A stretch of DNA of 64,000 nt from an uncultured Holophagales bacterium (GTDB taxonomy: Bacteria > Acidobacteriota > Thermoanaerobaculia > Multivoradales > UBA5704). The translations under genes were made by a program, and so were the position numbers. Below are positions 1 through 20,938 of the stretch, in pieces; positions within the stretch are counted from its first letter, which is position 1; every line of letters starts with the position of its first letter. Under the pieces are notes generated by a model. The model was not told where the DNA came from. It was given only the letters and a program-made list of their open reading frames with translations, and did no database searches. The stretch spans positions 77,993 to 141,992 of the forward strand of contig CAVUHL010000003.1 of the NCBI GenBank assembly GCA_963741305.1, read 5' to 3'.

Positions 1-105
1 TCAGCCGGGAGTACAAGAGGCTGTTCGGACAGCCCCCCGTCAGGGACGTGGAGCGGCTGCGCGAGGCGGCGAGGAGCTAGGCCGCTGCCCTGTCATCTCA
101 CTCCA

Positions 106-1761
106 TCATCGCACCGGAATCGATTGCGCGTGATGAAAATAGTCGTCCGGATCCCACCGTTCTTTGACCTTGACCAGATTGCGCGGATTCCGTCGAAAGT
201 TGTCCAGGAAATATAGCCAGAGCGCGTGATCGACGTCGCCGCGATCGTGGCTGCCCAGCACCGTGTCGGGATAGTTGTAATAGGCGCCATCGACCGTGCC
301 GGTGGTGTCCCTCGCCGGATCGGGCGTGCCGCCGTATTCCGCATAAACCTCACGGTAAAAGTCGTTGATCCATTGCAGGTGCGCCTCGGCCTGAGCCTGG
401 TAGGGCGGCAGGTAACTCTCGCCCGGCTCCGAGGCGTTGAGCCAGTAGGTCTGGTACTGGAGCTTCATGATGGAGCTGCGCTGCGGCACGGCCGTCGACT
501 CTGATGTCCGCCGGTTGATTGCACCGCCGTAGCTATCCACCTGCAGCAGTGATTGGCTCATGTCGGTAGCAGGAAGGCCGGCCGGCGTGGTGTTCAACCA
601 CTTGTAGATGGCCTCGGCCTGATTGTCCGGGAAGGGCTTCTTCATATAGGCCGACTTGTATTTACCAAACTGATTCGGCCCGGAACCGTTCAGCGTTTGC
701 AGCGCCTCGAGGTAAGTGACGTGCTGCGCCGCGTCGCTGGCCGGCATGGTCGTCATGTAGCCCGGGTGCCCGCCGAGCGGCTTCTGGAGCGCCGCGCTCG
801 GGACGATCTGGTCGAAAAGCATCTTGGCTCGCTGAATGCTCCTCTCTGCCCGCTGACGATGGTCGCCATAATCGATACCGGGGTCAGACACCAACTGCAG
901 GAGCAGGCCAATCTGCCCGTTCGAGACGTGGTTCAATTTCAGGAGGCTGAAGTCGGTATCGGGCATCTCCACGACGAGCTCGGCGTAGGCGGCCAGTAGC
1001 TCGGCGAAGCTGTTCCGGTCGAGATCGGACCAGTTCCAAGCCAATGCACGGATGGTGGCGTGATCCGGCGCGTCGGGAAGCTGGGCAAAGTAGTAGCGCA
1101 CGATGACGCCGAAGTTGCCGCACCCTGCGCCGCACAAGGCCCAGAACAGGTCCCGCTCGTCGCTCGTCGCGCTCTCGGCAGATACGTGACGCAATTCTGC
1201 CTGTCCAACCCTGGCGTCCCATGTCACGATGTCCACGGCGCTCAGGTGATCCACGGTCAAGCCGTGCATCCTCGACAACAATCCGTACCCGCCGCCGGTG
1301 ATATGGCCGCCCGCTCCGACCGAATAGCAGCTACCGGCGGGCAAGGTCTTGTTGAACCCATTCAACAGCGTGCGATACACGGACCAGTTTTCACATCCGG
1401 CATCGACGAAGAAGGCATTGCGCACCGGATCGAACCCCGTCTGGCTCAAAGCAGACATGTCGATGATGGCCCTGGTGCTGCTGTTGTAGACGAAATTCTC
1501 ATAGCAGTGCCGACCCGAGGTGACCCTCACGTCTCTGCCGTGAGCCTTGACGGCGGCCGTCAAACAGTCAGCGACCTGTTCCGGATGCGTCGGGGCGTAC
1601 ACCGATTGCAAGTTGGAGGCGAACCAGCGGCGGTCGAATCCCTGGCGGTCGCTGAGGACAACGGGGCGGCTACCACCGTGCGCGATTGAATGGCTCAAGA
1701 CAGTGCACTCCTTCCCGGGAAACAAACTCGGCGTTCGCTTGAGTGATGTTGTCATATTCAA
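106..1761 (-). CDS. FAD-linked oxidoreductase, berberine-bridge-enzyme (BBE)/vanillyl-alcohol-oxidase-like
   Basis: 551 aa. PCMH-type FAD-binding motifs (GRHCYENF, SVGAGGHITGGGYG) and a BBE-like C-terminus (LVKVKERWDPDDYF). Confidence 0.8.
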   Translation of the reverse strand: MNMTTSLKRTPSLFPGKECTVLSHSIAHGGSRPVVLSDRQGFDRRWFASNLQSVYAPTHPEQVADCLTAAVKAHGRDVRVTSGRHCYENFVYNSSTRAIIDMSALSQTGFDPVRNAFFVDAGCENWSVYRTLLNGFNKTLPAGSCYSVGAGGHITGGGYGLLSRMHGLTVDHLSAVDIVTWDARVGQAELRHVSAESATSDERDLFWALCGAGCGNFGVIVRYYFAQLPDAPDHATIRALAWNWSDLDRNSFAELLAAYAELVVEMPDTDFSLLKLNHVSNGQIGLLLQLVSDPGIDYGDHRQRAERSIQRAKMLFDQIVPSAALQKPLGGHPGYMTTMPASDAAQHVTYLEALQTLNGSGPNQFGKYKSAYMKKPFPDNQAEAIYKWLNTTPAGLPATDMSQSLLQVDSYGGAINRRTSESTAVPQRSSIMKLQYQTYWLNASEPGESYLPPYQAQAEAHLQWINDFYREVYAEYGGTPDPARDTTGTVDGAYYNYPDTVLGSHDRGDVDHALWLYFLDNFRRNPRNLVKVKERWDPDDYFHHAQSIPVR

Positions 1762-7724: not shown

Positions 7725-8669
7725 TTACGGCGATACAGTGGCAAACAAACCCACGAACGGCAGGGCCGGCGGGAAGCAGCCGTTGGGGAATCTCGCCAGG
7801 CGGTCTCCAGCCTTCAGCCTTTCCGCTGCCTCACGGAACGCCGCAAGGAAGAGGCCGTAGGCCGCCCTCAGCCCTTGACGGGCATCCTTGCTGGCGGCGT
7901 GGAACAGCGGCGCGGGTGACTTCTTGAGCTTCTTCGGCCGCGTGTGCGGATGCTGGCTCAGGATGGCCTCCGGGCCGAGCGGCTCCCTGCCCGTGAGCTT
8001 CCTTTCCGCCGCGGCGTCGGACTCGATCTCGCGCACCAGCCCCGCCACCAGATCCCGATACACCTCCGGGCTGAGATGACGCCAGCAGGGTAGTTGCGAG
8101 AGCGCGACAGTCTCTTCCGACGGAAAGCTTTCAGGCTTGGAGTCCTTCTTCTTCTTGCGCAGCCGGGCCCGGTACTCCTGGGTGCGATTGAACCAGGTGC
8201 CGTGAATGGGCTCGCCGTCGAGCACGGCCTTGATCATGCTGATGCCGGGCCACTCCTCGACCCGTGCTACGAGTCCATCCTTGACGCCCTGGGCAAGGAC
8301 GTAGCGTAGACGATCGACTTGGGCCGCGGGTTCGTCGCTGACGGGGATCGACGTGTAGCGGTCGGACCAGACCCCGTCCGGCCAGTCCGTCAGGCGACCG
8401 ACCTCGCGCGCCGCGTTGGTCTGGAAGTACCACATGAACTTCGCCATGCTCCTGGCGTCCGGAACCCACAGGAGCAGGTGGTAGTGCGACGAGAGGAATG
8501 AGAAGCCGCAGATCTCGACCGGGTAGAGCCTCTGGGCACGGCCGAGGACACCGAGGAGGATGTCGTCGATCACCGGGTCCGGCCGCAAAAGGTACCGGCC
8601 CTGGTGGGTGCGACAGGTGATTTCAACGAAGGAGCCTTCTTGCGGGATGAAGCGTGGTGGTCTTGACAT
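7725..8669 (-). CDS. HUH (Y1-type) transposase-like protein, IS200/IS605 / REP-associated (RayT-like); copy 1 with C-terminal read-through
   Basis: HuH motif SSHYHLLLWVPD; MAKFMWYFQTNAAREV...VWSDRYTS block. Near-identical to 8751-9590. The TAG stop of copy 2 is GAG here, which extends the ORF to 314 aa. Confidence 0.55.
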   Translation of the reverse strand: MSRPPRFIPQEGSFVEITCRTHQGRYLLRPDPVIDDILLGVLGRAQRLYPVEICGFSFLSSHYHLLLWVPDARSMAKFMWYFQTNAAREVGRLTDWPDGVWSDRYTSIPVSDEPAAQVDRLRYVLAQGVKDGLVARVEEWPGISMIKAVLDGEPIHGTWFNRTQEYRARLRKKKKDSKPESFPSEETVALSQLPCWRHLSPEVYRDLVAGLVREIESDAAAERKLTGREPLGPEAILSQHPHTRPKKLKKSPAPLFHAASKDARQGLRAAYGLFLAAFREAAERLKAGDRLARFPNGCFPPALPFVGLFATVSP

Positions 8670-8750
8670 AGTACCCGTGTAGAGACGGAAAACGGGTCCA
8701 AAATGTCATTCCTGGAAACGCTTCAACATTAGCCCGGCACTTATCGCTGC

Positions 8751-9590
8751 CTAACGGAACGCCGCAAGGAAGAGGCCGTAGGCCGCCCTCAGCCCTTGAC
8801 GGGCATCCTTGCTGGCTGCGTGGAACAGCGGCGCCGGTGACTTCTTGAGCTTCTTCGGCCGCGTGTGCGGATGCTGGCTCAGGATGGCCTCCGGGCCGAG
8901 CGGCTCCCTGCCCGTGAGCTTCCTTTCCGCCGCGGCGTCGGACTCGATCTCGCGCACCAGCCCCGCCACCAGATCCCGATACACCTCCGGGCTGAGATGA
9001 CGCCAGCAGGGTAGTTGCGAGAGCGCGACAGTCTCTTCCGACGGAAAGCTTTCAGGCTTGGAGTCCTTCTTCTTCTTGCGCAGCCGGGCCCGGTACTCCT
9101 GGGTGCGATTGAACCAGGTGCCGTGAATGGGCTCGCCGTCGAGCACGGCCTTGATCATGCTGATGCCGGGCCACTCCTCGACCCGTGCTACGAGTCCATC
9201 CTTGACGCCTTGGGCAAGGACGTAGCGCAGACGATCGACTTGGGCCGCGGGTTCGTCGCTGACGGGGATCGACGTGTAGCGGTCGGACCAGACCCCGTCC
9301 GGCCAGTCCGTCAGGCGACCGACCTCGCGCGCCGCGTTGGTCTGGAAGTACCACATGAATCTGGCCATGCTCCTGGCGTCCGGAACCCACAGGAGCAGGT
9401 GGTAGTGCGACGAGAGGAATGAGAAGCCGCAGATCTCGACCGGGTAGAGCCGCTGGGCACGGCCGAGGACACCGAGCAGGATGTCGTCAATTACCGGGTC
9501 GGGCCGCAAGAGGTATCGGCCCTGGTCGGTGCGGCAGGTGATTTCGACGAAGGAGCCATTTTCTGGGATGAAGCGTGGTGATCTTGACAT
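8751..9590 (-). CDS. HUH (Y1-type) transposase-like protein, copy 2 (279 aa)
   Basis: Same HuH motif as copy 1; ends at a TAG that copy 1 has lost. Confidence 0.55.
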   Translation of the reverse strand: MSRSPRFIPENGSFVEITCRTDQGRYLLRPDPVIDDILLGVLGRAQRLYPVEICGFSFLSSHYHLLLWVPDARSMARFMWYFQTNAAREVGRLTDWPDGVWSDRYTSIPVSDEPAAQVDRLRYVLAQGVKDGLVARVEEWPGISMIKAVLDGEPIHGTWFNRTQEYRARLRKKKKDSKPESFPSEETVALSQLPCWRHLSPEVYRDLVAGLVREIESDAAAERKLTGREPLGPEAILSQHPHTRPKKLKKSPAPLFHAASKDARQGLRAAYGLFLAAFR

Positions 9591-9728: not shown

Positions 9729-9833
9729 AACTAAAGTGTAGAAACCACGAGTGCATTGACATGTTGCAATCAGTCACCGGGATCGCCGACTGCGAAACGC
9801 TGATTGCAGAACCTCTGCACAGGGAGATCCGGC

Positions 9834-11222
9834 ATGTCCCGTCGTCCCATCCTTCGCTGTCTTCTCCTCGCTGCGTTCGCCACGGCCGGCACGGCCGCCG
9901 CGTCCAATCTTTCGGTGACCAAATTGGACAGTCCCGACCCGGTGGTTCCAGGAGGAACCATCACCTACACCATCACCGTCACCAACTCGGGGCCCGGCAG
10001 CGCCGCCGACGTCGTCCTCTCGGACCAGATCCCGGCGGACACGAGGCAGATCTCGTTCAACTCCCCGCCCGGTTGGTCGTGCATCGCCCCGACGATCGGT
10101 ACGGTCACCTGCGGCAATCCGTCGTTCGGTGTGGGCAGCGCCGTCTTCACCATGACGGTGGAGGCGTCGTCCGCCTTCATTACGGGCACAGTCATCACCA
10201 ATACCGCGAGCGTCACGTCGTCCACGGTGGACCCCAATCCGGGCAACGAGAGCGCCACCACGACCACGACGGTGGCAGCCAACACGGGCGCGGGGGCGGC
10301 CTCGCTCACCAAGAGCGACTTCCCGGATCCCGTCGTCGCCGGCACGGGCCTGTCCTATTTCCTCGTCGCCAGGAACGCCAGCGGTGGCGCCCTCGGACCG
10401 ACGACGGTCACCGACGTCCTGCCGGCGGGCACTACGTTCCTGATGTTGAATCCGCCGCCGGCCGGCTGGACCTGCACCGCGCCTCCCGCAGAGGCCACCG
10501 GCACGGTCACCTGCTCGACCGCCGTCTTCGCTCCGGGTGATTCGTTCCTCGGCTTCTCCGTCAGGGTCAACCCTTCGGTGCCAGCCGGCATGGTGCTGAC
10601 CAACACGGCGGACCTGGTCGTCATGGACGGTACCCTTGGTGTCATCAACCGGGACGCAACGACGACGACGACCGTCATCACGCCGGGGGCGATCGTCTAC
10701 GGAACCAAAGCGGTTTCCAGCGGATCCCTCATGCCGGGAAGCGCGCTGACCTACACCGTCGTGCTGACCAACAACGGCGACTCTCCTCAGGGGGACAACC
10801 CGGGCGACGAATTCACGGACGTGCTGCCGGCCAGCCTGACGCTGGTCAGCGCCACGGCGACCTCGGGCACGGCTACGGCCAACATCGCCAACCGCACGGT
10901 GGCCTGGAACGGCTCGATCGCGTCCGGGGCCTCGGTGACGATCACCATCAACGCCGTGATCGACCCCGCGGTCCCGCCGGGCACGACGATCACCAACCAG
11001 GGGACGATCTTCTACGACACAGACGTCAACGGCGCCAACGAGTCCTCGACCGGCACGGACAATCCGGCGACGCCCAACGCCAACCCCGATCCCACGTCCT
11101 TCGTGGTGCCGGTAGCGACGCCGATCCCGACCGTCAATGAGATCGGCCTCATGCTGCTGGCGCTGCTGCTCGCCATGGTCGGCGCCTGGACGCTGCGGCG
11201 CCGGCAGGGCGGCGCCTTCTAG
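9834..11222 (+). CDS. Secreted DUF11-repeat (conserved repeat domain) protein with C-terminal IPTL-CTERM-type sorting signal
   Basis: Signal peptide MSRRPILRCLLLAAFATAGTAAA. Repeated blocks of the type PDPVVxGxxLxYxxxVxNxG. C-terminus IPTVNEIGLMLLALLLAMVGAWTLRRRQ (IPTL motif + TM + Arg cluster). Confidence 0.75.
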   Translation: MSRRPILRCLLLAAFATAGTAAASNLSVTKLDSPDPVVPGGTITYTITVTNSGPGSAADVVLSDQIPADTRQISFNSPPGWSCIAPTIGTVTCGNPSFGVGSAVFTMTVEASSAFITGTVITNTASVTSSTVDPNPGNESATTTTTVAANTGAGAASLTKSDFPDPVVAGTGLSYFLVARNASGGALGPTTVTDVLPAGTTFLMLNPPPAGWTCTAPPAEATGTVTCSTAVFAPGDSFLGFSVRVNPSVPAGMVLTNTADLVVMDGTLGVINRDATTTTTVITPGAIVYGTKAVSSGSLMPGSALTYTVVLTNNGDSPQGDNPGDEFTDVLPASLTLVSATATSGTATANIANRTVAWNGSIASGASVTITINAVIDPAVPPGTTITNQGTIFYDTDVNGANESSTGTDNPATPNANPDPTSFVVPVATPIPTVNEIGLMLLALLLAMVGAWTLRRRQGGAF

Positions 11223-11258: not shown

Positions 11259-11579
11259 TTGACAGGAGCCTCGGACATGACCATGGATGAAGCGCAGGAA
11301 GAGATCCGGCAGATGAAGTGGGACCTTCGGATCCTGAGCGACCAGGCGCTCAGGGTCGCTGATGCCCTTCCTCCCGAAGACCGGGAGCGGATCGCCGACA
11401 TCGCGGACCGGATCGCGGACGCGGCCCAGGACCTGATCACGGCGATCAACCAGGATGACGTGGACACCGAGGCCAAGATGGTCGCGCGAATGCAGGGCGG
11501 CCTCGCCGAGGTCCAGAAGCAGCTCAAGCTCATCGCCCGCGAGCTGAACGAGGTGGCAGATGGGCTGTTCTTTCATTGA
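11259..11579 (+). CDS. Hypothetical small helical protein
   Basis: 106 aa, acidic, coiled-coil-like; no motifs. Confidence 0.4.
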   Translation: MTGASDMTMDEAQEEIRQMKWDLRILSDQALRVADALPPEDRERIADIADRIADAAQDLITAINQDDVDTEAKMVARMQGGLAEVQKQLKLIARELNEVADGLFFH

Positions 11580-11582
11580 CCC

Positions 11583-11790
11583 CCTCGGCCGGGCTGGCCA
11601 TTCCGATCAATCTGGGTAGAAGATTGGCATGCCATGTACGTTCATGATCCTCCTCTTCGCGACGGCCGCCGCTGCTTCCACGGTTCCTGCCCAGCTTGAC
11701 GCGATCCTGAAGGACTACGGCGCCGATACGCCGGGGGCCACGTGCTCGTGGCGCAGGATGGGAAGATTCTCTACCGCAAGGGAGCGCGGC
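11583..11790 (+). pseudogene. Fragment (about 210 bp) of the serine-hydrolase gene 5' end; copy 1 of 3
   Basis: Near-identical to 12789-12990 and 17704-17900 (ggtagaagatggcatgccctgtacgttcatgatcctcctcttcgc...). Confidence 0.8.
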
Positions 11791-11808
11791 GTAAGATGAA
11801 TCAAAAGC

Positions 11809-12765
11809 TTGAGTCATAGCGAGGTTTTCATGCGTGACTGGCTGCTGCGGGTGCTGCGATCGGTTCCGGGAAGGATCGTGACCTTTCTCACGTTTCTGCT
11901 CTTCGCCATCATCGCTCGGGAACTGCTCCTCGGTCTCGTCCGTGCTGCGACGGGATTGCGCCGCCCGCCGCCTCTCTGGCTATCGCCCCATACAGAATTT
12001 GCCGTGCGGCCGACGGGTATCGCCTACGCGTTCTTCGGTGCGGCGCTGATGATCGCCCTCGGCCTCGGCGCCTATCGACTGTTCGTCAGATGGCTGGAAG
12101 GCCGCCCCGCAAAGGAGATCGGCCGGCCCTTCGCTGCCGAGCTCGCCCTGGGTACTTCCTTGGGGGCGACTTTTGTGCTTGCAATAGCAGGTGTGCTGGC
12201 TCTTGGCGGCTGGCTTCGCCTGAGCTGGAGTGGTGCGTGGCACTTTGCCCTTGTTTCCCTGGCCATGGCTGCAACTGCAGCGGTCGTGGAGGAAATCGCT
12301 CTCCGCGGTGTCCTCTTGCGGATTCTCGAGGAGAAGCTCGGAAGCTGGGTTGCGCTGGGGTCGACGGCCTTGGTCTTCGGTGGGCTCCATGCATCCAACA
12401 AAGGTGCAACTGCCTGGAGCACGATTGCCGTAGCGTTGTCTGGTGGCCTCGTCCTGGGCGCGGCATTCATTCTCACGCGTCGCCTCTGGCTACCGATTGG
12501 TATCCACTTTGGTGTCAACGCGACCCAAGGGCCCCTGCTCGGCGCCCCGGTGTCAGGACGCAAGGGGCAGGGGTGGCTCCATTCGGACCTCGTCGGGAAT
12601 CCACTCTGGACGGGGGGCACCTTTGGTCTGGAGGGTTCGGCATTGGTGCTGCCAATGGGAGCCCTGCTGGGCTGCGTACTCCTTGCGCTCGCGTGGCGTC
12701 GCGGTCGAATACAGCCAGCGCCTTGGCAGCGTACGGGGCGCCTGGGAACAGATCTATCGCGTTGA
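11809..12765 (+). CDS. CPBP family intramembrane metalloprotease (CAAX protease / Abi-like)
   Basis: EEIALRGVLL (EExxxR), FGGLHA (FxxxH) and HFGVNA motifs; multi-TM. Confidence 0.75.
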   Translation: MSHSEVFMRDWLLRVLRSVPGRIVTFLTFLLFAIIARELLLGLVRAATGLRRPPPLWLSPHTEFAVRPTGIAYAFFGAALMIALGLGAYRLFVRWLEGRPAKEIGRPFAAELALGTSLGATFVLAIAGVLALGGWLRLSWSGAWHFALVSLAMAATAAVVEEIALRGVLLRILEEKLGSWVALGSTALVFGGLHASNKGATAWSTIAVALSGGLVLGAAFILTRRLWLPIGIHFGVNATQGPLLGAPVSGRKGQGWLHSDLVGNPLWTGGTFGLEGSALVLPMGALLGCVLLALAWRRGRIQPAPWQRTGRLGTDLSR

Positions 12766-12827
12766 AGGTTTGGCGAGACGCCAAGAGCCGGGCTGGCCAT
12801 TCCGGTCAATCTGGGGTAGAAGATGGC

Positions 12828-13526
12828 ATGCCCTGTACGTTCATGATCCTCCTCTTCGCCACGGCCGCCGCTGCTTCCACGGTTCCCGCCCAGCTTGACG
12901 CTATCCTGAAGGACTACGGCGCCGATGCGCCGGGGGCCAGCGTGCTCGTGGCGCAGGACGGGAAGATCCTCTACCGCAAGGCATTCGGCCTCGCCAACCT
13001 GGAAGAGAGGACGCCCATCACCACGGCCACCAACTTCCGGCTGGCGTCGGTCACCAAGCAGTTCACCGCCACGGCCGTGCTCCTCTTGGCCGAGCGAGGA
13101 AAGCTGTCACTCGAAGATCCACTGTCCCGCTTCTTCCCCGTCTTCATCGGGGCCGCGCACGGGGTCAAGGTGCGCCATTTGCTCGGGCACACCTCGGGGC
13201 TCCTCGATTACGAGGAGCTCATGCCGCCCGGCACCACGGTGCCGCTCAAGGACAAGGACGTGCTCGACCTGGTCGGCAAGCAGGACAGGCTCTACTTCGC
13301 GCCGGGCAGCCAGTTCCGCTACAGCAACACGGGCTACGCCCTGCTGGCCCTGATCGTCGAGAAGGTCTCCGGCCGGTCGTTCGCGCAGTTCCTCCAGGAG
13401 AACATCTTCGGTCCGCTGGGGATGGCTGGAACCGTGGCCTACGAGGAGGGTATCTCCAAGGTGGAGCGCCGGGCCTACGGATATAGTGAGAGAGAGGGCC
13501 GTTTCGAGCGTACCGCGCGCGGATAG
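12828..13526 (+). pseudogene. Truncated 5' duplicate (about 233 codons) of the serine-hydrolase/beta-lactamase-fold gene at 17718-18770
   Basis: About 97% identical to 17718-18420 and includes the SVTK (SxxK) active-site motif. Diverges at 13513 and terminates; the 478-aa ORF 12090-13526 is an artefact. Confidence 0.8.
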
Positions 13527-13555
13527 TTGCCAGAGTTTTCCGAGTTGCGCAAGCT

Positions 13556-16500
13556 TTGGAATATGCGTTAATGTGGTCATTCCCTCGTCTCAAACGCCCC
13601 ACGGTCTTCATTGCCGCGCCCGGTGACCTGGCGCATCTGCGCCGTGCCACTGCGCGAATGCTCGGCGAAATGAAGTCCCGGTCAGCCGACGATCATGGCA
13701 TTGTCCTCTTTGACTGGGTCATCGACATGGCCGCGGATGGATTCATGGATTGGATTCCGGCTCAGGGACAAATCCCGCTACCTTCGGACAAGCTGTGTCG
13801 CGCTGTCGTCTGCATGTTCGGAGAGCGGATAGGGACTCCGCTGCCGCCGGACTTCGATCTCACGGCGATCGGTGATCTCGCCGCATTCGCATCGGAGCAG
13901 CGTGTGGTCCACCCCTGGAATTCGGCGGTGGCGGAGAGCGGGGGATTCAGTCTCACGGGCACGGTGTTCGAGTTTCTGGCCGCGCTCCATGCCAATGCCG
14001 GCGGAGCCGCCAGATCCGAGCAGGAGCTGGGTAATCCACCGGTCCTGCTCCTGTTCGTCGGTCGAGAGGATCTGGATGGCGATCTCGATCCGCTCGACAT
14101 GGGTTGGGGCAACTACCGGCTCGACGCCGAAGCGCGGGCGCGGTTCGAGTCCAGTTATCCCAAGGCGTGGCGCACGCAGTATGCGAAGTGGCAGAAAGAG
14201 GAGTACCTCCCGCAACTCGTCCAGCTACGCAATTTCTTTCGGTTCGTCCGGTCGCGGGGCATCGTGCCGCGTGTCGTTCGGGATGATCGGGAGGCCCAGG
14301 AGGCCATCCGCAGCTTTCTCGGCCGGTCGCTCAGGCTCGGAGCGGACGGCGCGAGGCGCGACCCCTTTCTCGGCCTCGAGGCGTTCGACGTCGAAGACCA
14401 GATGGTGTTCTTCGGGCGCAAAGAGGAACGCAACCGGATGATCGCGGCGTTCAAGGTGCTGTGGGACGACCCTGATCGGCCGACCTTCTTTGGCATCATC
14501 GGCGGCAGCGGGGTCGGGAAGTCGTCGATGCTGAAGGCAGGACTGATCTCCTCCTTGTGCGACTCCTTGTCGCCGGATCTCTACCGAGCCTGTATCGTCC
14601 GTCCTGGCGAAATACCGCAGGCAGGATTGACGACGTGGGCCGGAGGCAGGTGCCGGCGCACCGGCGACGCGCTGCAGGAGCTGGTCGCCCGCATTCTCGA
14701 TGCACTCGAATGCGGTGAAGCAATCGAGCCCACGCAGCGGCGGCTCGCGACGGTTCGCGACGAGCACCGGGGCATGGAGGCATTGGAGATGGTGACCGCC
14801 TGTTTGCCCGCGGACCATCGCCTCTTGATCGCCTTCGATCAATTCGAAGAGCTGGTCGATCCATTGTCGGACCCCGATCTCGCGGCACGGTGGCATCCTG
14901 TGGTCGACCTGATTCGGGCGGCTGCCCGGGACCGCCGGGTCGGCGTGCTCTACACGCTCCAGGAGAATCGCCAGGACAGCCTGGTCAGCAATCCGATCCT
15001 CGGGGAGCTGTTCAGGACGGGCGAGGCGAGATCGTTGAGCTTCCCGACGCAAGGGCTCGACGAGATCATTGGTGAGCCTTTTCGTTCGCAGGGCTTACAG
15101 CTCGAGCCCGCCCTCTCCCGCGAGCTCCACCGCCGGATCATGGAGTTTGCGGCATTCCAGGACTCGACGACCCAGGGCAGCCTGCTGCCGTTGGTCTCCG
15201 TGATGCTCAAGCGGATCTACACGGAGCGGGGCAGGATGCTTCAAGGCCACGACCGCACCCCTCTTGTTTCTGTCGGCGGGCCGCAAGCGTTGGAACGACC
15301 GGTGGCCTCGACAGGAGAGCACCCGGAGAACATGCCCGTCCTTCGTCTCGCGGATTGCGAGGATCTCCTCGACGTGGGCGATGCCATCGCCGAGTTGGCT
15401 CAACAAGCAATGGAGAGTGCAAAAACCATTTTAGGGCCGGTCTGGTCGGAAAGCGACCTCGGCGGGCTTTTGCGGACGCTCGTCCGGCGGCAAGGGCGCG
15501 ACGATCGTCTGAGCCTTCCACCCGCGCCGATGCCATCCAAGGCCGCCGGCCGCCGCCTTGCGAAGGCCTTCCTGGCACGGCGGCTCCTTCTCCCGACCGA
15601 AGAAGGCCGCATTCGCCTGGTGCACGAGGCGCTCCTGCACCACTGGCCGCCGGCAGCCTCGTGGCTCGAAGAGGAACGCAGCCTGCTCGACGATTCGATT
15701 CTGCTCGGTCTGCACGCCGACGCATGGGACCGCGGCGGCCGGTCTCCGGAGCAGCTCCGCCCCGACGACCTGGAACGGGCTGCAATGCTGTTGCACAAGT
15801 GGATGACGAACCTGAGCCCGCAGAAGGGCTACTCCCTCAGCCCGGAGGATGCCCGGCTCCGTGACTACGGGCTCGCACTGCTCTCACAAGCCCATCCGCG
15901 CAAGACTGTGGATACGTCGACCTGCATGCATGTGGCCACCGCCTACAGCGAGTCGTCACTGGTTCGGAAGTATCTCAATCTCGATCGGGAGGTTGCTCAT
16001 CTCGTTCGGGAAGACGGCCGCATGCCCTTGTTCAATCCGTGCTTTACCGGTGCGGAGGATCTGGTCGCCATGCTGCTCGGGGCAGGTGCCGATCCCGACA
16101 CGCAAGACAACGCCGGCTGGCGGCCTCTGCATGCGGCTGTGACCGAGGGCAACATCGGGGTGATCGAGCTTCTGCTGGAGGCAGGGGCGGCGATCGAATC
16201 TCGAGGTCCCAACGGCATCACACCGCTCGAAATCGCGGCGCGCGAAGGACGCGCCGAGGTTCTGACACTCATGCTGGAGAGGGGAGCAGATCCCGGTTCG
16301 ACCACGAACAGAGGCTGGACCCCTTTGCATACCGCTGTCGACAGAGGCCATCTTGCGGCCGCGAGAGCGCTGCTCGACCATGGCGCCGACATCCAGGCGC
16401 AGAGTGATCTGCCTCTGGGCAAGGGTCCCGCGGCGCTCCACCTTGCGGCCCAGAATGGCTCGGTCGAGCTCGCCAAGCTCTTGATCGATCGGGGTGCGAA

Positions 16501-17569
16501 TCTGGAAGCGCTCCTGGAGGCCAGGCCTACCTGGAACGTCAAGGTGAGCGCCGAGGTGAGCAAGGAGCTGGCTGCGGGCAGCACCGCGGCCGGTGTCGAG
16601 TTGGGAAGGGATGCCGCGACACCGCTGCACATGGCCATTCGATGGGGCACCGAGGAAGTCGCGTGGCTGCTTCTCGAGGCGGGCGCGGACCCGAATGCCC
16701 AGAGAGGCATCCTGGGTACGCCGCTGCACGCCGCGGCACAGCAGGCCAATGTGCCCCTCGTCGCGATGCTGCTGGGCCACGGCGCCGATCCCAACGCTCC
16801 GCGCGCGGATGGCCTGACCCCTCTTCACTATGCACGGATCAACGGCGATGGCGACGTGCTGACGCTGATGCTGGAGGACGTTCGCTCGCAGGGAAGCGGA
16901 GGAGACATCGAGGTCAAGCTTCCAGTCGAGCTGGCGCTAGCCGGCGGGCGCAGCTTGCCCTGGTATGACTGGGTGACTGTCGATCACGACATGGCTGCTG
17001 ACTTTGTCAATCAACTGCACCCGATCGACGGCCGATGGGAGCTCGCTGAGCGCCGAACGCACGTCGCCTACGCCTGGTTGCCCTGGTATCGGGATGTTGC
17101 CTTGATCGAAGTCACGGATCCATCGTGGGACCGACCCAATCTGAGAATCTACTTCCTCGCTTTGAACGACCATCTGTATCGGTTGAATGGCACATCCCCT
17201 CTGATCCACGAGGTCAATGAACGTGCCCGGCTCCATCTCGAGGCCGATCACGCTCTCGAATATCTACGGTTCTTCTTTTTCTTCGTGCGCGGGGAAGAGG
17301 GTCCGTTCTACATCCTCGAGGATGCCAACGACCCGCTCCTCCCTCCCTATGTCGATCCGACAACGAGGCAACTGCTGGAGCATCTCGTGCGGCCGGCAGA
17401 GCTCGAGCGCAGCGAAGGTGGTGATCACATGTGCCACGCGACCGTGTTCTACTCCGACGCGCTCTTCCGCATTACGTTCGAGGTCCACAGGAACGGTAGG
17501 ATCTACTTGAAGGAGGACAAGCCGATCGTGGCGGGCCTGCCTTTCCGGATCCATGCACCGCTCGGCTAG
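13556..17569 (+). CDS. STAND-class NTPase with ankyrin repeats (NLR-like), N-terminal DUF4062/TIR-like region, novel C-terminal domain
   Basis: N-terminus VFIAAPGDLAHLRRA (DUF4062-like). Walker A GGSGVGKSS, Walker B LLIAFDQFEEL. About 8 ankyrin repeats (GWRPLHAAV..., TPLHTAV..., TPLHMAI..., TPLHAAA..., TPLHYA...). C-terminal ~250 aa unassigned. Confidence 0.8.
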   Translation: MEYALMWSFPRLKRPTVFIAAPGDLAHLRRATARMLGEMKSRSADDHGIVLFDWVIDMAADGFMDWIPAQGQIPLPSDKLCRAVVCMFGERIGTPLPPDFDLTAIGDLAAFASEQRVVHPWNSAVAESGGFSLTGTVFEFLAALHANAGGAARSEQELGNPPVLLLFVGREDLDGDLDPLDMGWGNYRLDAEARARFESSYPKAWRTQYAKWQKEEYLPQLVQLRNFFRFVRSRGIVPRVVRDDREAQEAIRSFLGRSLRLGADGARRDPFLGLEAFDVEDQMVFFGRKEERNRMIAAFKVLWDDPDRPTFFGIIGGSGVGKSSMLKAGLISSLCDSLSPDLYRACIVRPGEIPQAGLTTWAGGRCRRTGDALQELVARILDALECGEAIEPTQRRLATVRDEHRGMEALEMVTACLPADHRLLIAFDQFEELVDPLSDPDLAARWHPVVDLIRAAARDRRVGVLYTLQENRQDSLVSNPILGELFRTGEARSLSFPTQGLDEIIGEPFRSQGLQLEPALSRELHRRIMEFAAFQDSTTQGSLLPLVSVMLKRIYTERGRMLQGHDRTPLVSVGGPQALERPVASTGEHPENMPVLRLADCEDLLDVGDAIAELAQQAMESAKTILGPVWSESDLGGLLRTLVRRQGRDDRLSLPPAPMPSKAAGRRLAKAFLARRLLLPTEEGRIRLVHEALLHHWPPAASWLEEERSLLDDSILLGLHADAWDRGGRSPEQLRPDDLERAAMLLHKWMTNLSPQKGYSLSPEDARLRDYGLALLSQAHPRKTVDTSTCMHVATAYSESSLVRKYLNLDREVAHLVREDGRMPLFNPCFTGAEDLVAMLLGAGADPDTQDNAGWRPLHAAVTEGNIGVIELLLEAGAAIESRGPNGITPLEIAAREGRAEVLTLMLERGADPGSTTNRGWTPLHTAVDRGHLAAARALLDHGADIQAQSDLPLGKGPAALHLAAQNGSVELAKLLIDRGANLEALLEARPTWNVKVSAEVSKELAAGSTAAGVELGRDAATPLHMAIRWGTEEVAWLLLEAGADPNAQRGILGTPLHAAAQQANVPLVAMLLGHGADPNAPRADGLTPLHYARINGDGDVLTLMLEDVRSQGSGGDIEVKLPVELALAGGRSLPWYDWVTVDHDMAADFVNQLHPIDGRWELAERRTHVAYAWLPWYRDVALIEVTDPSWDRPNLRIYFLALNDHLYRLNGTSPLIHEVNERARLHLEADHALEYLRFFFFFVRGEEGPFYILEDANDPLLPPYVDPTTRQLLEHLVRPAELERSEGGDHMCHATVFYSDALFRITFEVHRNGRIYLKEDKPIVAGLPFRIHAPLG

Positions 17570-17717
17570 CTTGGCTCTCTGCCCCCCTTCGCGATGCCCA
17601 CCCCGGATCTCATCTCCCGGCCCGCCCGCCGCCGGGGAGAGAAGCACGACCCCTACGACGATTCGACTCTGGAGACCTTGACGCTGGAGCCTCTGCCGTG
17701 CTGGGATAGAAGATGGC

Positions 17718-18770
17718 ATGCCCTGTACGTTCATGATCCTCCTCTTCGCCACGGCCGCCGCTGCTTCCACGGTTCCCGCCCAGCTTGACGCGATCCTGAA
17801 GGACTACGGCGCCGATGCGCCGGGGGCCAGCGTGCTCGTGGCGCAGGACGGGAAGATCCTCTACCGCAAGGCATTCGGCCTCGCCAACCTGGAAGAGAGG
17901 ACGCCCATCACCACGGCCACCAACTTCCGGCTGGCGTCGGTCACCAAGCAGTTCACCGCCACGGCCGTGCTCCTCCTGGCCGAGCGAGGAAAGCTGTCGC
18001 TCGAAGATCCACTGTCCCGCTTCTTCCCCGGCTTCGCCAGTACCGCGCACGGGGTCAAGGTGCGCCATCTGCTCGGGCACACCTCGGGGCTCCTCGATTA
18101 CGAGGATCTCATGCCGCCCGGCACCACGGTGCCGCTCAAGGACAAGGACGTGCTCGATCTGGTCGGCAAGCAGGACAGGCTCTACTTCGCGCCGGGCAGC
18201 CAATTCCGCTACAGCAACACGGGCTACGCCCTGCTGGCCCTGATCGTCGAGAAGGCCTCCGGCCGGTCGTTCCCGCAGTTCCTCGAGGAGAACATCTTCG
18301 GCCCACTGGGGATGGCCGGCACCGTTGCCTACGAGGAGGGTATCTCCAAGGTGGAGCGCCGGGCCTATGGGTACAGTGAGAGGGACGGCCGTTTCGAGCG
18401 CACCGACCAGAGCCTCACCAGCTCGGTCCTGGGGGACGGCGGCATCTACTCGTCGGTCGAGGACTTGTGGCTCTGGGACCAGGCCCTGTACGGCACCCGC
18501 CTGCTGCCAGCCGAGGCCCTGGCGATGGCCTTCCAGGCCGGCACGCCCACCTCGGACCAGCCCGGCAGCGGCTACGGCTATGGTTGGTACGTGGCTTCGC
18601 ACAAGGGGACGCGCAAGGTCTGGCACTATGGCGAGACCATCGGGTTCAGCACGTACCTGGCCCGCTACCCGGACAAGCGGCTCACGATCATCATGCTCAC
18701 GAACCGGAACAACAACTTCCTCGGACCGACGGTGGATCGCATTGCCGATGTGATCCTCGCCACGCCGTGA
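17718..18770 (+). CDS. Serine hydrolase, beta-lactamase (class C)/PBP-like fold, full length
   Basis: 350 aa; SVTK (SxxK), YSN, signal-like N-terminus. Intact copy of the two upstream repeats. Confidence 0.8.
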   Translation: MPCTFMILLFATAAAASTVPAQLDAILKDYGADAPGASVLVAQDGKILYRKAFGLANLEERTPITTATNFRLASVTKQFTATAVLLLAERGKLSLEDPLSRFFPGFASTAHGVKVRHLLGHTSGLLDYEDLMPPGTTVPLKDKDVLDLVGKQDRLYFAPGSQFRYSNTGYALLALIVEKASGRSFPQFLEENIFGPLGMAGTVAYEEGISKVERRAYGYSERDGRFERTDQSLTSSVLGDGGIYSSVEDLWLWDQALYGTRLLPAEALAMAFQAGTPTSDQPGSGYGYGWYVASHKGTRKVWHYGETIGFSTYLARYPDKRLTIIMLTNRNNNFLGPTVDRIADVILATP

Positions 18771-20938
18771 TCAGTCTCCGTGGATCGGTGATCGCGGCGG
18801 CGCTTCTGGCGACCGCCTGCGGACGCGACTCCTCACCCGGACCCGGACGCTTCCCGGGCGCGCCGGTGATCGTCATCTCGGTCGATACCTTGCGTGCGGA
18901 CCACCTCCCGGCCTACGGTTACCGCCAGGTCGAAACACCCAATATCGACGGACTGCGGCGCGACTCGGTCCTCTTCGAGCGCGTCTACAGCCATTGCCCG
19001 ATGACGCTTCCTTCGCACGCCTCGATGTTCACCGGATTGCTGCCCACCGAGCACGGCGTGCGGAACAACATCGGCTACCGGTTCGAAGGAGAGAAGCTCA
19101 GAACCCTCGCCGAGGAGCTGCGCGAGCGAGGCTATGCAGCGGGCGCCGCGGTGTCGTCCTACGTTCTGCGCTCCGACACCGGGATCGATGACGGCTTCGA
19201 GCTCTACGAAGATTCTATCGCCGTTGCGACGGCGGGTGCGACGAGCGAGCACCAGCGCTCGGGCACGGAGACGCTGAAGCACGCGCAGGCATGGATTCTG
19301 GGGCACCGCGAGCAGCCTTTCTTTTTCTTCCTCCATCTTTACGAGCCGCACGCCCCCTACGATCCACCCGAGCCGTTCAAGAGCCGCTATCCGTCTGCCT
19401 ATGACGGAGAGATCGCCGCTGCGGATGCCATCGTCGGCGAGTTAATTCGATCGCTCAAGGATTCCGGGCTCTACGATTCCGCGATCATCATCCTCACCTC
19501 GGATCACGGCGAGGGCTTGGGGGACCACGGCGAAGACCAGCATGGGATCCTGCTGTACCGCGAGGCGCTGTGGGTTCCGCTCCTGGTCAAGTTGCCGGGC
19601 TCGCACCAGGCCGATTCGATCAGCCGGCCCACGCCTCTGGCGCATCTTTTCGGCACGGTGCTGCGCCTGGTGGGAATCGACCTGCCTTCGCGCCCGGCTT
19701 CGTGGTTCGATTCTGGAGGCGATTCTGGAGGCGATACTGAAGCCGAGGCCCGTCCCATCTACTCCGAGACGCTCTACCCGCGCATTCACCTCGGCTGGAG
19801 CGAGCTGCGGTCGCTGACCGACGGCCGCTATCACTACATCGAAGGGCCCAGCCCCGAGCTCTACGACCTGGAGAGCGATCCCGGTGAAGCCAAGAATCTG
19901 ATTACGATCGAGCGCCGAGAGGCTTCACGGCTGCGGCGGGAGATGCAGGCGGCTTATCCCGCAACGGCCGCAACGGCCGCAGCGATCGGCGAGATCGACC
20001 CGGAGGAGGCCAGGAACCTGGCGGCTCTGGGATACGTGGGGACGCCGCGCGAGCGTGGTCCGGGGCCGCTGCCGAACCCGCGCGACGAGGTCAAGAACCT
20101 CGCTCGCATCAAGGCGGCGTTCCGCTTCGCGGACGAGCGCCGGTTGGATGAGGCGGCCGCGGCCTTGAGGAGTCTGCTGCAAGAGAACCCCAAGCTCATG
20201 GACGTGTGGTCGAAGCTGGGAGAGGTCCTGGTGGAATCCGGCCGCTACGAGGAAGCGATCGAGGCCTATCGGTCGGCGATCACTCACGCCGAGCGCTTCT
20301 CGCCGGACCTCGCGCTCGCCCTGGGCTTCGCCTATCTCAAGCACGGCGAGGCCGTCACGGCTGCAACGCATGCCCGCCTCGCCCTCAAGACCCATCCCCG
20401 CGAAGCGAACGAGCTCCTCGCCCGGGTCGCGCTCGAAGAGGGACGCTTCGATGCCGCGGAGGAGCACGTGAGGTCCGCCCTTCAGCCCGGCGACAGCCAG
20501 CCGGCGACGTTGCTGTTGCTCGCCGACGTCGAGCGGTCCGTCGGCAAGCTCGAACGAGCGCTGCAGAGCGTCCAGGAGGCGGAGCGGCGCGCGGAGGAGC
20601 TCGGGGTCGGGAAGCTGCAGGGAGCGGACTATCTGCGCGGCGACCTGCTGGCGCGCCTCGACCGGCCGGACGAGGCGGCCACCGCCTACCGGCGTGAGAT
20701 CGCGGCGTTCCCACAGCACCTGCAGGCCTACGCCAATCTGGCGGTAATCCTTATTATCCAGGGCAGGAGCGCGGAGGCGAACGAGCTGCTCGAGCAGATG
20801 GCGCGGAGCAACCCGCACCGAGGGGCGTTTCTCCTGGCGGCGAAAACCCTCGAGGTGTTCGAGGACCGCCAGGGCGCCGCGCGCTGGCGTCAGCGCGCGG
20901 CGCGGCAGGACCCTAGAACCTCGTCACATTCCGAGTGA
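18767..20938 (+). CDS. Sulfatase/alkaline-phosphatase-superfamily hydrolase fused to C-terminal TPR repeats; lipoprotein-like N-terminus
   Basis: GTG start overlapping the hydrolase stop (GTGA). VISVDTLRADHLP, CPMTLPSHAS, TSDHGEGLGDHGE (sulfatase-family metal/active-site motifs). TPR-like repeats from about residue 540. The ORF track start at 18467 is an artefact. Confidence 0.7.
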   Translation: MISLRGSVIAAALLATACGRDSSPGPGRFPGAPVIVISVDTLRADHLPAYGYRQVETPNIDGLRRDSVLFERVYSHCPMTLPSHASMFTGLLPTEHGVRNNIGYRFEGEKLRTLAEELRERGYAAGAAVSSYVLRSDTGIDDGFELYEDSIAVATAGATSEHQRSGTETLKHAQAWILGHREQPFFFFLHLYEPHAPYDPPEPFKSRYPSAYDGEIAAADAIVGELIRSLKDSGLYDSAIIILTSDHGEGLGDHGEDQHGILLYREALWVPLLVKLPGSHQADSISRPTPLAHLFGTVLRLVGIDLPSRPASWFDSGGDSGGDTEAEARPIYSETLYPRIHLGWSELRSLTDGRYHYIEGPSPELYDLESDPGEAKNLITIERREASRLRREMQAAYPATAATAAAIGEIDPEEARNLAALGYVGTPRERGPGPLPNPRDEVKNLARIKAAFRFADERRLDEAAAALRSLLQENPKLMDVWSKLGEVLVESGRYEEAIEAYRSAITHAERFSPDLALALGFAYLKHGEAVTAATHARLALKTHPREANELLARVALEEGRFDAAEEHVRSALQPGDSQPATLLLLADVERSVGKLERALQSVQEAERRAEELGVGKLQGADYLRGDLLARLDRPDEAATAYRREIAAFPQHLQAYANLAVILIIQGRSAEANELLEQMARSNPHRGAFLLAAKTLEVFEDRQGAARWRQRAARQDPRTSSHSE

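What the first reader, a model, noticed from the sequence alone, without database searches (positions are those of the whole stretch)
11583..18440. Three nested direct copies of the 5' end of a serine-hydrolase gene flank two inserted genes (CPBP/Abi protease and STAND NTPase)
Copies of about 210 bp (11583-11790), about 730 bp (12789-13513) and full length (17704-18770) are about 95-97% identical and in direct orientation. The CPBP protease gene and the STAND gene lie between them. A full copy and a 3'-truncated duplicate bracketing foreign DNA is what single-crossover (Campbell-type) integration of a circular molecule carrying a gene fragment produces, and here it appears to have happened twice. 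Both passenger genes belong to families linked to abortive infection or defence. The hydrolase 5' region may be a recurrent integration hotspot for defence cargo.
Basis: seen in the sequence. Interest (0 to 1): 0.65.

Follow-up and report, generated by a model that had tools for sequence, protein, structure and literature searches.

The report
Stacked gene stubs upstream of hydrolase
Two decaying copies of the front end of a serine-hydrolase gene sit upstream of the intact gene, each followed by one extra gene; these are scars of repeated rearrangement at a variable chromosomal spot in a soil acidobacterium, not a new mobile element or a defence island.

Summary
Stub A (11588-11781), stub B (12787-13515) and the intact hydrolase gene C (17701-18770) are direct repeats. 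One CPBP protease gene and one nSTAND1-ankyrin gene lie between them. All four inner junctions recur at 100% identity in independent contigs, and the window belongs to an 8.4-Mb contig, so an assembly artefact is unlikely.

The layout fits Campbell-type insertion-duplication, but it fits one-sided homologous plus illegitimate recombination (HFIR-like allele stacking) equally well. The inserts carry no plasmid, integrase or replication function. The CPBP piece is a chromosomal gene of the same clade (96% identical to another Thermoanaerobaculia locus), and that locus's downstream neighbour p162 lies beside the hydrolase in sister species.

About 20 related genomes keep the downstream genes in order but differ upstream. 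Some carry their own stubs or duplicates (L085, L007/L082, L009, L008). The hotspot claim is therefore supported. The defence-cargo claim is not: PADLOC gave no specific hit, "Abi" is an obsolete name for CPBP, and cargo elsewhere consists of oxidoreductases, receptors and peptidases.

Still unexplained are a recurrent breakpoint 43 nt upstream of the start codon and the gene-sized cargo boundaries.

The parts
7725..9590 (-). Two RAYT-like (REP-associated tyrosine transposase-like) genes, 7725-8669 and 8751-9590. They form a tandem duplicate with a 921-nt period. This is the probable old left neighbour of the hydrolase locus.
   Evidence: NCBIfam NF047646 at E = 9e-12 and 3e-11, both below the curated cutoff. 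The two copies are 97.1% identical over 895 nt. A 52%-identical homologue lies directly upstream of hyd in L006, and a remnant lies upstream in L085.
9804..11222 (+). DUF11-repeat surface protein with an IPTL-CTERM sorting signal. It is the leftmost cargo.
   Evidence: Pfam PF01345, PF25549 and PF18203. No homologue was found in any related locus.
11259..11579 (+). 106-aa ORF of unknown function. Its stop codon lies 8 nt before stub A.
   Evidence: ORF list. No Pfam hit at the 0.01 threshold; only sub-cutoff hits at 0.1.
11588..11781 (+). Stub A: leader U plus hyd codons 1-51, frameshifted by a 1-nt deletion. It is a pseudogene fragment.
   Evidence: Alignment A1. It has 4-5 private substitutions, mostly GC to AT, plus 2 indels.
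11782..12786 (+). CPBP cargo segment. The CPBP glutamic intramembrane protease ORF is 11830-12765. The segment starts 48 nt before the ATG and ends 12-21 nt after the stop codon.
   Evidence: Pfam PF02517 at E = 3e-18. Window 11782-12777 matches L161 7115-8114 at 96.1%, and homology begins exactly at junction J1.
12787..13515 (+). Stub B: U plus hyd codons 1-229. The reading frame is still open and stops at 13524-13526.
   Evidence: 705 nt ungapped at 96.0% to C. Of 16 B-private changes, 13 are GC to AT. There are 3 differences to C in the first ~313 nt and 24 in the remaining ~375 nt.
13516..17700 (+). STAND cargo segment. The nSTAND1 NTPase-ankyrin ORF is 13556 (or 13571)-17569, followed by a 131-nt tail.
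   Evidence: Pfam PF20703 at E = 2e-43 plus Ank families. The N-terminal 270 aa and C-terminal 229 aa have no Pfam hit. The nearest non-self homologue is 51% identical and sits in an unrelated context.
17701..18770 (+). Copy C: the intact serine-hydrolase (beta-lactamase family) gene, 17718-18770, with only 17 nt of its native leader.
   Evidence: Pfam PF00144 at E = 2.5e-73. Orthologues of 87-95% amino-acid identity occur in 24 loci from related Thermoanaerobaculia genomes and metagenome contigs.
18767..20938 (+). Sulfatase-TPR gene. Its GTG start overlaps the hyd stop codon. This is the conserved right-hand anchor, followed by a TonB-dependent receptor gene at 21051-24035 on the minus strand.
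   Evidence: Pfam PF00884 plus TPR families. It is syntenic at 89-95% nucleotide identity in L001-L006, L008, L010, L013, L085 and L086.

Best explanation
The array records serial 'allele stacking' at a variable chromosomal site. In this Thermoanaerobaculia clade the block hydrolase-sulfatase-TonB receptor is conserved, but whatever lies upstream of the hydrolase differs between lineages.

When DNA carrying a different upstream neighbour entered a cell, or paired with a sister copy, it could recombine homologously only on the conserved right side, in hyd and downstream. The non-homologous left end was joined illegitimately. Twice, that join landed inside the resident hyd gene, at +153 and at +688. 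The resident 5' end was therefore pushed left as a stub rather than replaced. The incoming piece supplied its own cargo gene and a fresh hyd 5' end. A circularised fragment integrating by one crossover (Campbell type) would give the identical product.

The stubs then decayed, and the first ~320 nt of B and C were later homogenised by gene conversion.

Shown: the anatomy, the junctions, stub decay, the CPBP source context, and the variability of the site. Inferred: the recombination route, the order of events, and the gene conversion.
For: 1. Anatomy. There are three direct copies. The left two are 3'-truncated at different points. A and B keep the native leader U, and C does not.
2. One-sided conservation. 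Downstream synteny runs at 89-95% identity wherever enough sequence is available. Upstream sequence is shared only between L001/L002(/L120) and between L007/L082.
3. Independent events of the same form in relatives.
   - L085 has U + hyd 1..268, then a 2.8-kb insert containing a GMC oxidoreductase, then a full hyd whose signal peptide differs. This is natural if a different allele was imported.
   - L007/L082 have two full copies about 2.25 kb apart.
   - L009 has a duplicated promoter-like element flanking 2.9 kb.
   - L008 has an 82-nt sulfatase 5' stub, a 1.8-kb insert and then the full sulfatase.
   - Every stub seen is a 5' stub lying left of an insert.
4. CPBP is chromosomal and was probably an old neighbour. 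It is 96.1% identical to L161, where it is followed by p162, and p162 abuts hyd in L001 and L002. Only junction J1 needs to be a new join.
5. Over ORF positions 331-705, B and C are no closer to each other (about 94%) than to orthologues from other species (92-96%). Support for B+C as sisters is 22% there. This fits copies that come from two related alleles.
6. The stubs are decaying. A carries a frameshift, and 13 of 16 B-private changes are GC to AT.
7. The same logic has been proposed for orphan arrays at T6SS effector-immunity, Rhs and CDI loci (PMC5361080).
Against: - No donor allele (STAND directly upstream of hyd without stub B, or CPBP-U-hyd without stub A) was found in any database locus.
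- With a right-hand anchor, the simplest HFIR product predicts that B and C differ at the 5' end and match at the 3' end. The observed pattern is the reverse (3 differences, then 24). An extra gene-conversion step must be assumed.
- Both cargo pieces begin only 40-55 nt before their start codons, and the CPBP piece ends 12-21 nt after its stop. Random illegitimate joins do not predict such gene-sized pieces.
- Junction J1 shows at most 0-2 nt of microhomology when compared with L161.
- Natural competence, or any other DNA-entry route, is unknown for this organism.
Confidence: 0.45

Rival explanations
1. Duplication-insertion entirely within one genome. A replication template switch (microhomology- or break-induced), or end-joining repair with captured filler DNA, duplicated the hyd 5' segment and placed a copy of another chromosomal gene between the two copies. 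No DNA from another cell was involved.
For: B and C group together with 99% bootstrap support over positions 40-705 and share two private derived sites, at 305 and 315. CPBP and STAND have genome-typical GC content. The adjacent RAYT-like genes are themselves a 921-nt tandem duplicate, which shows local duplication activity. Junction J1 is essentially blunt.
Against: The 99% support comes from the homogenised first ~330 nt and falls to 22% beyond it. This model needs two new junctions per event instead of one. It does not explain why CPBP's native neighbour p162 is also hyd's neighbour in sister species. It does not explain why the right-hand copy in L085 has a different, functional-looking signal peptide. 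It predicts 3' stubs as often as 5' stubs, and none was seen.
Confidence: 0.22
2. Old full-length tandem paralogues, later trimmed. The lineage once carried two or three complete hyd copies separated by other genes, as L007 and L082 do today. Deletions then removed the redundant 3' parts up to the next useful gene.
For: L007 and L082 carry two full copies, each with its own promoter-like element, and copy 1 in L007 is already frameshifted. L014 and L015 are two hyd-bearing contigs of one MAG. This model would explain why both truncation points lie just upstream of the cargo start codons. The leader region shows at least seven different deletion lengths among species.
Against: The model only moves the question back to how the full copies with intervening genes arose. 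It needs more steps. It does not explain why the non-functional 194-nt and 729-nt stubs themselves escaped deletion.
Confidence: 0.15
3. Site-specific cassette capture. A recombinase or HUH nuclease, for example the neighbouring RAYT-like proteins, acts at a site at the left edge of leader U and inserts gene-sized cassettes.
For: Four different upstream sequences abut U within a 1-5-nt window (winA, winB, L120, L005), in the loop of a short inverted repeat CCAGC..GCTGG. Both cargo pieces are gene-sized. RAYT-like genes or remnants lie upstream of hyd in the window, L006 and L085.
Against: The stub 3' ends (+153, +688; +268 in L085) and the left edge of copy C (-17) share no common site. No integrase gene is present. 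The RAYT-like hits fall below the family cutoff. U occurs only twice in the 64-kb window, so it is not a dispersed REP element. No repeat flanks the cargo in the window.
Confidence: 0.06
4. Assembly artefact. The repeats are collapsed or chimeric joins of strain variants.
For: Several related MAG contigs break inside hyd (L008, L009, L011-L015). This shows that the gene is hard to assemble from short reads.
Against: Junctions J1-J4 join unrelated sequences with no shared k-mers, and all four recur at 100% identity in independent Logan contigs. The locus lies on an 8.38-Mb contig. The copies differ by 4-8% and carry decay-type mutations.
Confidence: 0.02

Closest known systems
Campbell-type insertion-duplication (single crossover of a circle carrying a gene fragment)
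   Same: Direct repeats of the homologous segment flank the insert. The left copy is truncated at the fragment end and keeps the native upstream region. The right copy starts at the fragment start and is complete at its 3' end.
   Different: The insert has no vector-like or plasmid functions. It consists of one chromosomal-type gene. No circular form was observed. The copies are 4-8% diverged rather than identical.
Homology-facilitated illegitimate recombination (one homologous anchor, one illegitimate end), described for Acinetobacter, S. pneumoniae, P. stutzeri and E. coli (PMC3240628; references within PMC5361080)
   Same: One flank is conserved and one is variable. The new joins lie close to the anchor. 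Foreign or non-homologous DNA is trapped next to a conserved gene.
   Different: Classical products delete recipient DNA. Here the join lies inside the anchor gene, so a duplication results. Microhomology at the join could not be shown. The DNA uptake route is unknown.
Orphan arrays at T6SS effector-immunity, Rhs and CDI loci, formed by sequential displacement (PMC5361080)
   Same: Repeated events at one locus push older gene pieces aside and leave a stack of fragments next to a constant region.
   Different: This is a mirror image. The constant part here is the 3' side, and the stubs are 5' ends stacked upstream. The gene is an ordinary secreted serine hydrolase, not a polymorphic toxin. No immunity-type benefit explains why the stubs are retained.
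Prophage or island integration into a protein-coding gene that carries a replacement gene end, such as e14 in icd (from my own knowledge, not tested here)
   Same: A displaced, slightly diverged copy of a gene end remains as a direct repeat at the far side of the insert, and the gene stays intact.
   Different: Those cases use an integrase and a fixed att core at the gene's 3' end. Here there is no integrase, the stub lengths vary, and the 5' end is involved.
Defence islands and integration hotspots between core genes
   Same: Variable cargo lies next to a conserved core gene, and one cargo gene is a STAND NTPase from a clade predicted to act in conflict systems (PMC8195603).
   Different: No specific PADLOC defence-system model matched. 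Most cargo in relatives is metabolic or envelope-related.

Membership tests
Campbell-type insertion-duplication | Direct repeats of one homologous segment bracket the insert. One copy ends at the fragment end and the other is complete. | tested here: met
   The pairs are A(U..+153)/B and B(U..+688)/C(-17..end).
Campbell-type insertion-duplication | The insert derives from a circular molecule (plasmid, vector or excised circle). | tested here: not met
   Each insert holds one gene and no rep, mob or integrase domains. No plasmid record is similar beyond generic ankyrin or hydrolase matches. A circular form could not be looked for.
Homology-facilitated illegitimate recombination / sequential displacement array | One flank is conserved among relatives (the anchor) and the other flank is non-homologous. 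| tested here: met
   Downstream synteny is conserved, and upstream sequence is unrelated in nearly all of about 20 loci.
Homology-facilitated illegitimate recombination / sequential displacement array | The illegitimate junction shows short microhomology. | tested here: inconclusive
   Junction J1 compared with L161 shows 0-2 shared nt, but L161 is only a 96% surrogate for the true source. No source sequence is available for J3.
Homology-facilitated illegitimate recombination / sequential displacement array | Stacked copies come from different strains, so they are not each other's closest relatives. | tested here: inconclusive
   B+C sister support is 99% over positions 40-705 but 22% over 331-705. 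In that 331-705 stretch C pairs with the L001 orthologue in the tree.
Site-specific integration (integrase/att, integron cassette) | A recombinase gene next to the array. | tested here: not met
   Pfam and NCBIfam scans of the neighbouring genes found only two RAYT-like genes, both below cutoff.
Site-specific integration (integrase/att, integron cassette) | The same core site at every cargo boundary. | tested here: not met
   Stub ends at +153, +688 and +268 and the left edge of C at -17 share no motif. Only the left edge of U recurs.
Anti-phage defence island | Cargo matches known defence-system proteins. | tested here: not met
   In PADLOC, CPBP has no hit and STAND hits come only through ankyrin repeats. 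Cargo in relatives is largely non-defence, apart from a HigB toxin in L010 and a DUF4062-like/HEAT protein in L084 that was read by eye.
Genomic island at a tRNA gene | An intact tRNA gene at the island border. | tested here: not met
   ARAGORN finds no tRNA in the window or in 10 related loci. L081 has a 90-nt tRNA-like stretch scoring 22 bits, below Rfam's 29-bit cutoff.

The most novel reading that the evidence does not exclude
The left edge of the 43-nt hydrolase leader (GGGA|GCCGGGCTGG) could be a true site-specific breakpoint. It might be cut by the neighbouring RAYT-like HUH proteins or by another nuclease. Under this reading, gene-sized pieces are captured there without an integrase, giving an integron-like but recombinase-unlinked cassette array whose spacers are stubs of the target gene.
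Probability: 0.07. Interest if true: 0.75.

Novelty: new member of a known kind. Interest (0 to 1): 0.33.

Why it matters
The locus gives a clean, datable record of how single genes are added next to a conserved operon in an uncultured soil acidobacterium without any mobile-element machinery. If the one-sided-homology route is right, gene stubs of this kind could be used genome-wide as markers of past allele stacking. They could also help locate plasticity hotspots in MAG-only lineages. The finding also warns against reading 'Abi/CPBP' and any STAND gene as defence cargo on name alone.

Tried and rejected
- Assembly artefact. Rejected: independent Logan contigs L165 and L167 match across all four junctions at 100%, and the locus lies on an 8.38-Mb contig.
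- Plasmid or phage origin. No meaningful plasmid match was found. Phage collections were not searched.
- tRNA or Rfam element at the site. None was found in the window. Only a sub-threshold tRNA-like stretch occurs in L081. Folding of it and of the leader is no better than shuffled sequence.
- Defence annotation. PADLOC is negative or non-specific. The N- and C-terminal domains of STAND have no Pfam hit.
- My first reading that all synteny breakpoints sit within -17..+15 of the ATG. This was wrong. A conserved promoter-like palindromic element (TTGCAC-N18-GATAAT) and a variably deleted leader lie upstream in most relatives, and BLAST had missed them. The element is absent from the window.
- My interim conclusion that A, B and C are strictly in-genome duplicates. 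I softened this after the 331-705 tree.
- The excess of synonymous differences between B and C as proof of past selection. It is weakened once GC3 and the GC-to-AT bias are modelled (P = 0.04-0.10).
- Search for the native FAD-CPBP-p162 locus in this genome. No FAD homologue listed sits on the 8.38-Mb contig, so no second locus was found. Absence is not proven.
- Search for STAND source context. The nearest non-self homologue is only 51% identical and sits in an unrelated neighbourhood.
- Exact look-ups of the hyd protein and the 106-aa protein found nothing on record.

Full report
**Observation.** A self-comparison of 10000-20500 and a BLAST of 17400-18900 against the window show three direct copies of the start of one gene.
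- Copy C is the intact gene, 17718-18770, with homology beginning at 17701.
- Copy B, 12811-13515, matches C over 705 nt without gaps at 96.0%.
- Copy A, 11612-11781, matches C at 94.8% with three gaps.

Alignment shows that A and B share a further ~24 nt upstream (11588-11611 and 12787-12810). Together with the 17 nt that C also keeps, this forms a 41-43-nt leader, 'U'. C therefore retains only the last 17 nt of U. A carries a 1-nt deletion that shifts the frame. B keeps an open frame for 229 codons and then stops. B ends abruptly at 13515.

Pfam confirms the gene content: PF00144 for the repeated gene, PF02517 (Rce1-like/CPBP) for 11830-12765, and PF20703 nSTAND1 plus ankyrin repeats for 13556-17569. 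Only the identity quoted for copy A is slightly high.

**Is it real DNA?** The STAND protein is identical to a protein recorded on an 8,381,596-bp contig. Two short contigs assembled independently from run ERR11593400 reproduce the window at 100%. L165 equals 13448-17736 and spans the junctions on both sides of STAND. L167 equals 11698-12846 and spans both sides of CPBP. The junctions join unrelated sequences, so a k-mer graph could not have created them. The longest exact B/C match is 183 nt. I regard an assembly artefact as very unlikely.

**Organism and comparative context.** Scans with the hydrolase protein returned 24 loci with 87-95% amino-acid identity. The genome-collection hits are almost all labelled Thermoanaerobaculia or Acidobacteriota MAGs; the metagenome contigs carry no label. 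In every locus with enough sequence, the downstream genes (sulfatase-TPR, then a TonB-dependent receptor on the other strand) align to the window at 89-95% nucleotide identity. L008 and L084 have an extra insertion between hyd and the sulfatase gene, and the second hyd copy on L015 is not followed by it.

Upstream, no locus matches the window's STAND, DUF11 or 106-aa genes, and among relatives CPBP is found only at a separate locus. The loci also rarely match each other upstream. Only L001/L002(/L120) and L007/L082 share upstream sequence.

A closer look corrected my first impression. Most relatives keep a conserved promoter-like element (TTGCAC-N18-GATAAT, with the palindrome GCCGACAGTCGGC) and then a leader. 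The distance from this element to a fixed point in the ORF varies between 19 and 185 nt, in at least seven length classes. L081 has the longest form, which includes a tRNA-like 90-nt stretch. That stretch falls below the Rfam cutoff and is not called by ARAGORN. The promoter-like element is absent from the window.

**Other stubs in the clade.**
- L085 carries U plus hyd 1..268. A 2.8-kb insert with a GMC-type oxidoreductase follows, and then a full hyd whose first ~15 codons are replaced by a different signal peptide.
- L007 and L082 carry two full copies about 2.25 kb apart, each with the promoter-like element. Copy 1 of L007 is frameshifted.
- L009 has the promoter-like element twice, 2.9 kb apart.
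- L008 has an 82-nt stub of the sulfatase 5' end, a 1.8-kb insert and then the full sulfatase.

Every stub seen is a 5' stub lying to the left of an insert.

**Where the cargo came from.** The closest CPBP homologue (95% amino-acid identity) lies on contigs L161-L163, between an FAD-dependent oxidoreductase and a 162-aa gene, p162, with no hydrolase nearby. At the DNA level, window 11782-12777 equals L161 7115-8114 at 96.1%. Homology starts exactly at the end of stub A and ends 12-21 nt after the CPBP stop codon.

The same p162 gene lies immediately upstream of the hydrolase in L001 and L002, and 2.6 kb upstream in L120. The FAD gene lies 7.5 kb downstream of hyd in L006. The simplest reading is that CPBP-p162-hyd is an old arrangement in this clade. 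On that reading, the CPBP|U junction in the window is a deletion of p162, the promoter-like element and most of the leader. CPBP is then not foreign DNA.

No FAD homologue was recorded on the 8.38-Mb contig. For STAND, the nearest non-self relative is only 51% identical and sits in an unrelated neighbourhood, so its source is unknown. No plasmid record resembles the region.

**History of the copies.** Private changes were polarised against 27 orthologous sequences. B has 16 private changes, 13 of them GC to AT. C has 6-9 private changes. A has 4-5 substitutions plus two indels. This is the pattern expected of decaying pseudogene stubs.

Among the B/C codon differences, 16 are synonymous and 9 non-synonymous. 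At first this looked like past purifying selection. A model that accounts for GC3 and the GC-to-AT bias leaves only a weak signal on B's private changes (10 synonymous of 16, P = 0.04-0.10).

The differences are unevenly spread, with 3 in the first ~313 nt and 24 in the next ~375 nt. A neighbour-joining tree places B and C together with 99% support over positions 40-705, 66% over 301-705 and 22% over 331-705. In the 331-705 tree C pairs with the orthologue of another species, L001. Over positions 301-705, B and C are 94.1% identical, within the range each shows to orthologues of other species (89-96%).

I conclude that the 5' ~320 nt were homogenised, most simply by gene conversion. Whether the remainder reflects an in-genome duplicate or an allele from a close relative cannot be decided from this sequence.

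**Mechanism.** I favour serial stacking through one-sided homology (confidence about 0.45). DNA with a different upstream neighbour recombines homologously in the conserved hyd-sulfatase side. Its other end is joined illegitimately, and when that join falls inside the resident hyd gene, the resident 5' end survives as a stub. The arguments for this are:
- the conserved-right, variable-left structure of the locus;
- the exclusive occurrence of 5' stubs;
- the different signal peptide on the right-hand copy in L085;
- the fact that, given CPBP-p162-hyd synteny, only one new junction per event is needed.

This is the route proposed for orphan arrays at T6SS, Rhs and CDI loci (PMC5361080). It rests on homology-facilitated illegitimate recombination as described in several bacteria (PMC3240628). 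Campbell-type integration of a circularised fragment gives the same product and cannot be excluded.

The rivals are:
- duplication-insertion within one genome by template switching or end joining (0.22);
- old full-length tandem copies trimmed by deletion (0.15);
- a site-specific process at the edge of U (0.06);
- an assembly artefact (0.02).

**Points against my preferred model.**
- No single-cargo donor allele was found.
- The 5'-identical, 3'-divergent pattern of B versus C needs an added gene-conversion step.
- Both cargo pieces are oddly gene-sized.

**Defence claim.** PADLOC gives no hit for CPBP, and for STAND it gives only ankyrin-repeat-level hits. The 'Abi' name of PF02517 is considered inappropriate by the curator of the related sorting-protease families (bioRxiv 10.1101/2023.06.07.544157). 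nSTAND1 is a clade predicted by computation to occur in counter-invader systems (PMC8195603). A conflict role for the STAND gene is therefore possible but untested.

Cargo at this site in relatives includes a second beta-lactamase-family protein, a TonB-dependent receptor, a DUF6662 outer-membrane protein, a GMC oxidoreductase, an amine oxidase and a HigB toxin. Two further items were judged by eye from their ORF translations: a candidate S8 peptidase in L120 and a DUF4062-like/HEAT protein in L084. The hotspot is real, but it is not a defence hotspot on present evidence.

**Unexplained.** Four different upstream sequences meet U within a 1-5-nt window (stub A, stub B, L120 and L005). Six other loci continue with the normal leader. 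The point lies in the loop of a short inverted repeat. RAYT-like genes or remnants lie upstream of the locus in the window, L006 and L085. This could be a fragile site, a boundary trimmed by selection, or a nuclease site. I could not test which.

**Verdict.** The structure is a new instance of a known kind of recombination scar and is of moderate interest.

Noticed in passing
window 3117-4039 (plus outliers at 1834-1919): About 44 tandem copies of a 21-nt unit (GGGCAGCTGCCCAAGTCATCC) lie inside ORF 2879-4039(+). This would encode a heptad-repeat protein.
   Followed up: no
window 31323-31680: A second array with a 21-nt period (units like GAGAGGTCTCCGCGTNTCACG), with an internal 70-nt inverted repeat.
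   Followed up: no
window 7725-9639: Two RAYT-like genes form a tandem duplicate with a 921-nt period, 97.1% identical over 895 nt. Homologues or remnants lie upstream of the hydrolase in L006 and L085.
   Followed up: partly
window 9804-11222 and 11830-12765: A DUF11 protein with an IPTL-CTERM sorting signal lies 600 nt upstream of the CPBP protease. The protease has weak, sub-cutoff similarity to CTERM-sorting proteases MrtS and MrtJ. They could be a substrate-protease pair, yet stub A separates them. CPBP homologues elsewhere (L161, L164) have no such neighbour.
   Followed up: partly
L081 1010-1215; also L001-L010 and L082-L088 just upstream of hyd: A conserved promoter-like element (TTGCAC-N18-GATAAT with the palindrome GCCGACAGTCGGC) is followed by a leader. 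The distance from the element to a fixed point in the ORF varies from 19 to 185 nt between species. L081 and L010 hold a tRNA-like stretch with a T-arm and CCA end that neither ARAGORN nor Rfam accepts. The element is absent from the window.
   Followed up: partly
window 11587|11588 and 12786|12787; L120 6730|6731; L005 about 9963|9964: Four unrelated upstream sequences abut the same leader position (…|GCCGGGCTGG) within 1-5 nt. This may be a breakpoint hotspot.
   Followed up: partly
L161 about 7097-7109 and 8092-8104: A 13-nt direct repeat, TCTATCGCGTTGA, flanks the CPBP gene at its presumed native locus. The downstream copy includes the stop codon and is also present in the window at 12754-12766.
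   Followed up: no
L008 1057-1138 / 2896-2977; L084 10317-10361 / 13374-13418 and 11081-13303: Insertions lie between hyd and the sulfatase gene in two relatives. L008 has an 82-nt sulfatase 5' stub and a 517-aa secreted repeat protein. L084 has a 45-nt internal hyd fragment and a 740-aa protein with a DUF4062-like N-terminus and HEAT-like repeats, as judged by eye.
   Followed up: partly
L006 2750-2959, 10487-10602, 14814-14901; L010 4650-4949, 7430-7472, 13985-14231: Short dispersed repeats of 40-110 nt at 78-92% identity, some with CCCGAACGGGG-type hairpins. They lie near the RAYT-like gene and around the hyd locus and look REP-like.
   Followed up: no
window 48517-63802 (- strand): Very large ORFs (4026 aa and 1073 aa) with internal repeats of about 3.1 kb. 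They look like a modular NRPS-type synthetase cluster. No domain search was run.
   Followed up: no
window 20953-21010: A 35-nt overlapping palindrome lies between the convergent sulfatase-TPR and TonB-receptor genes. It is probably a bidirectional terminator.
   Followed up: no
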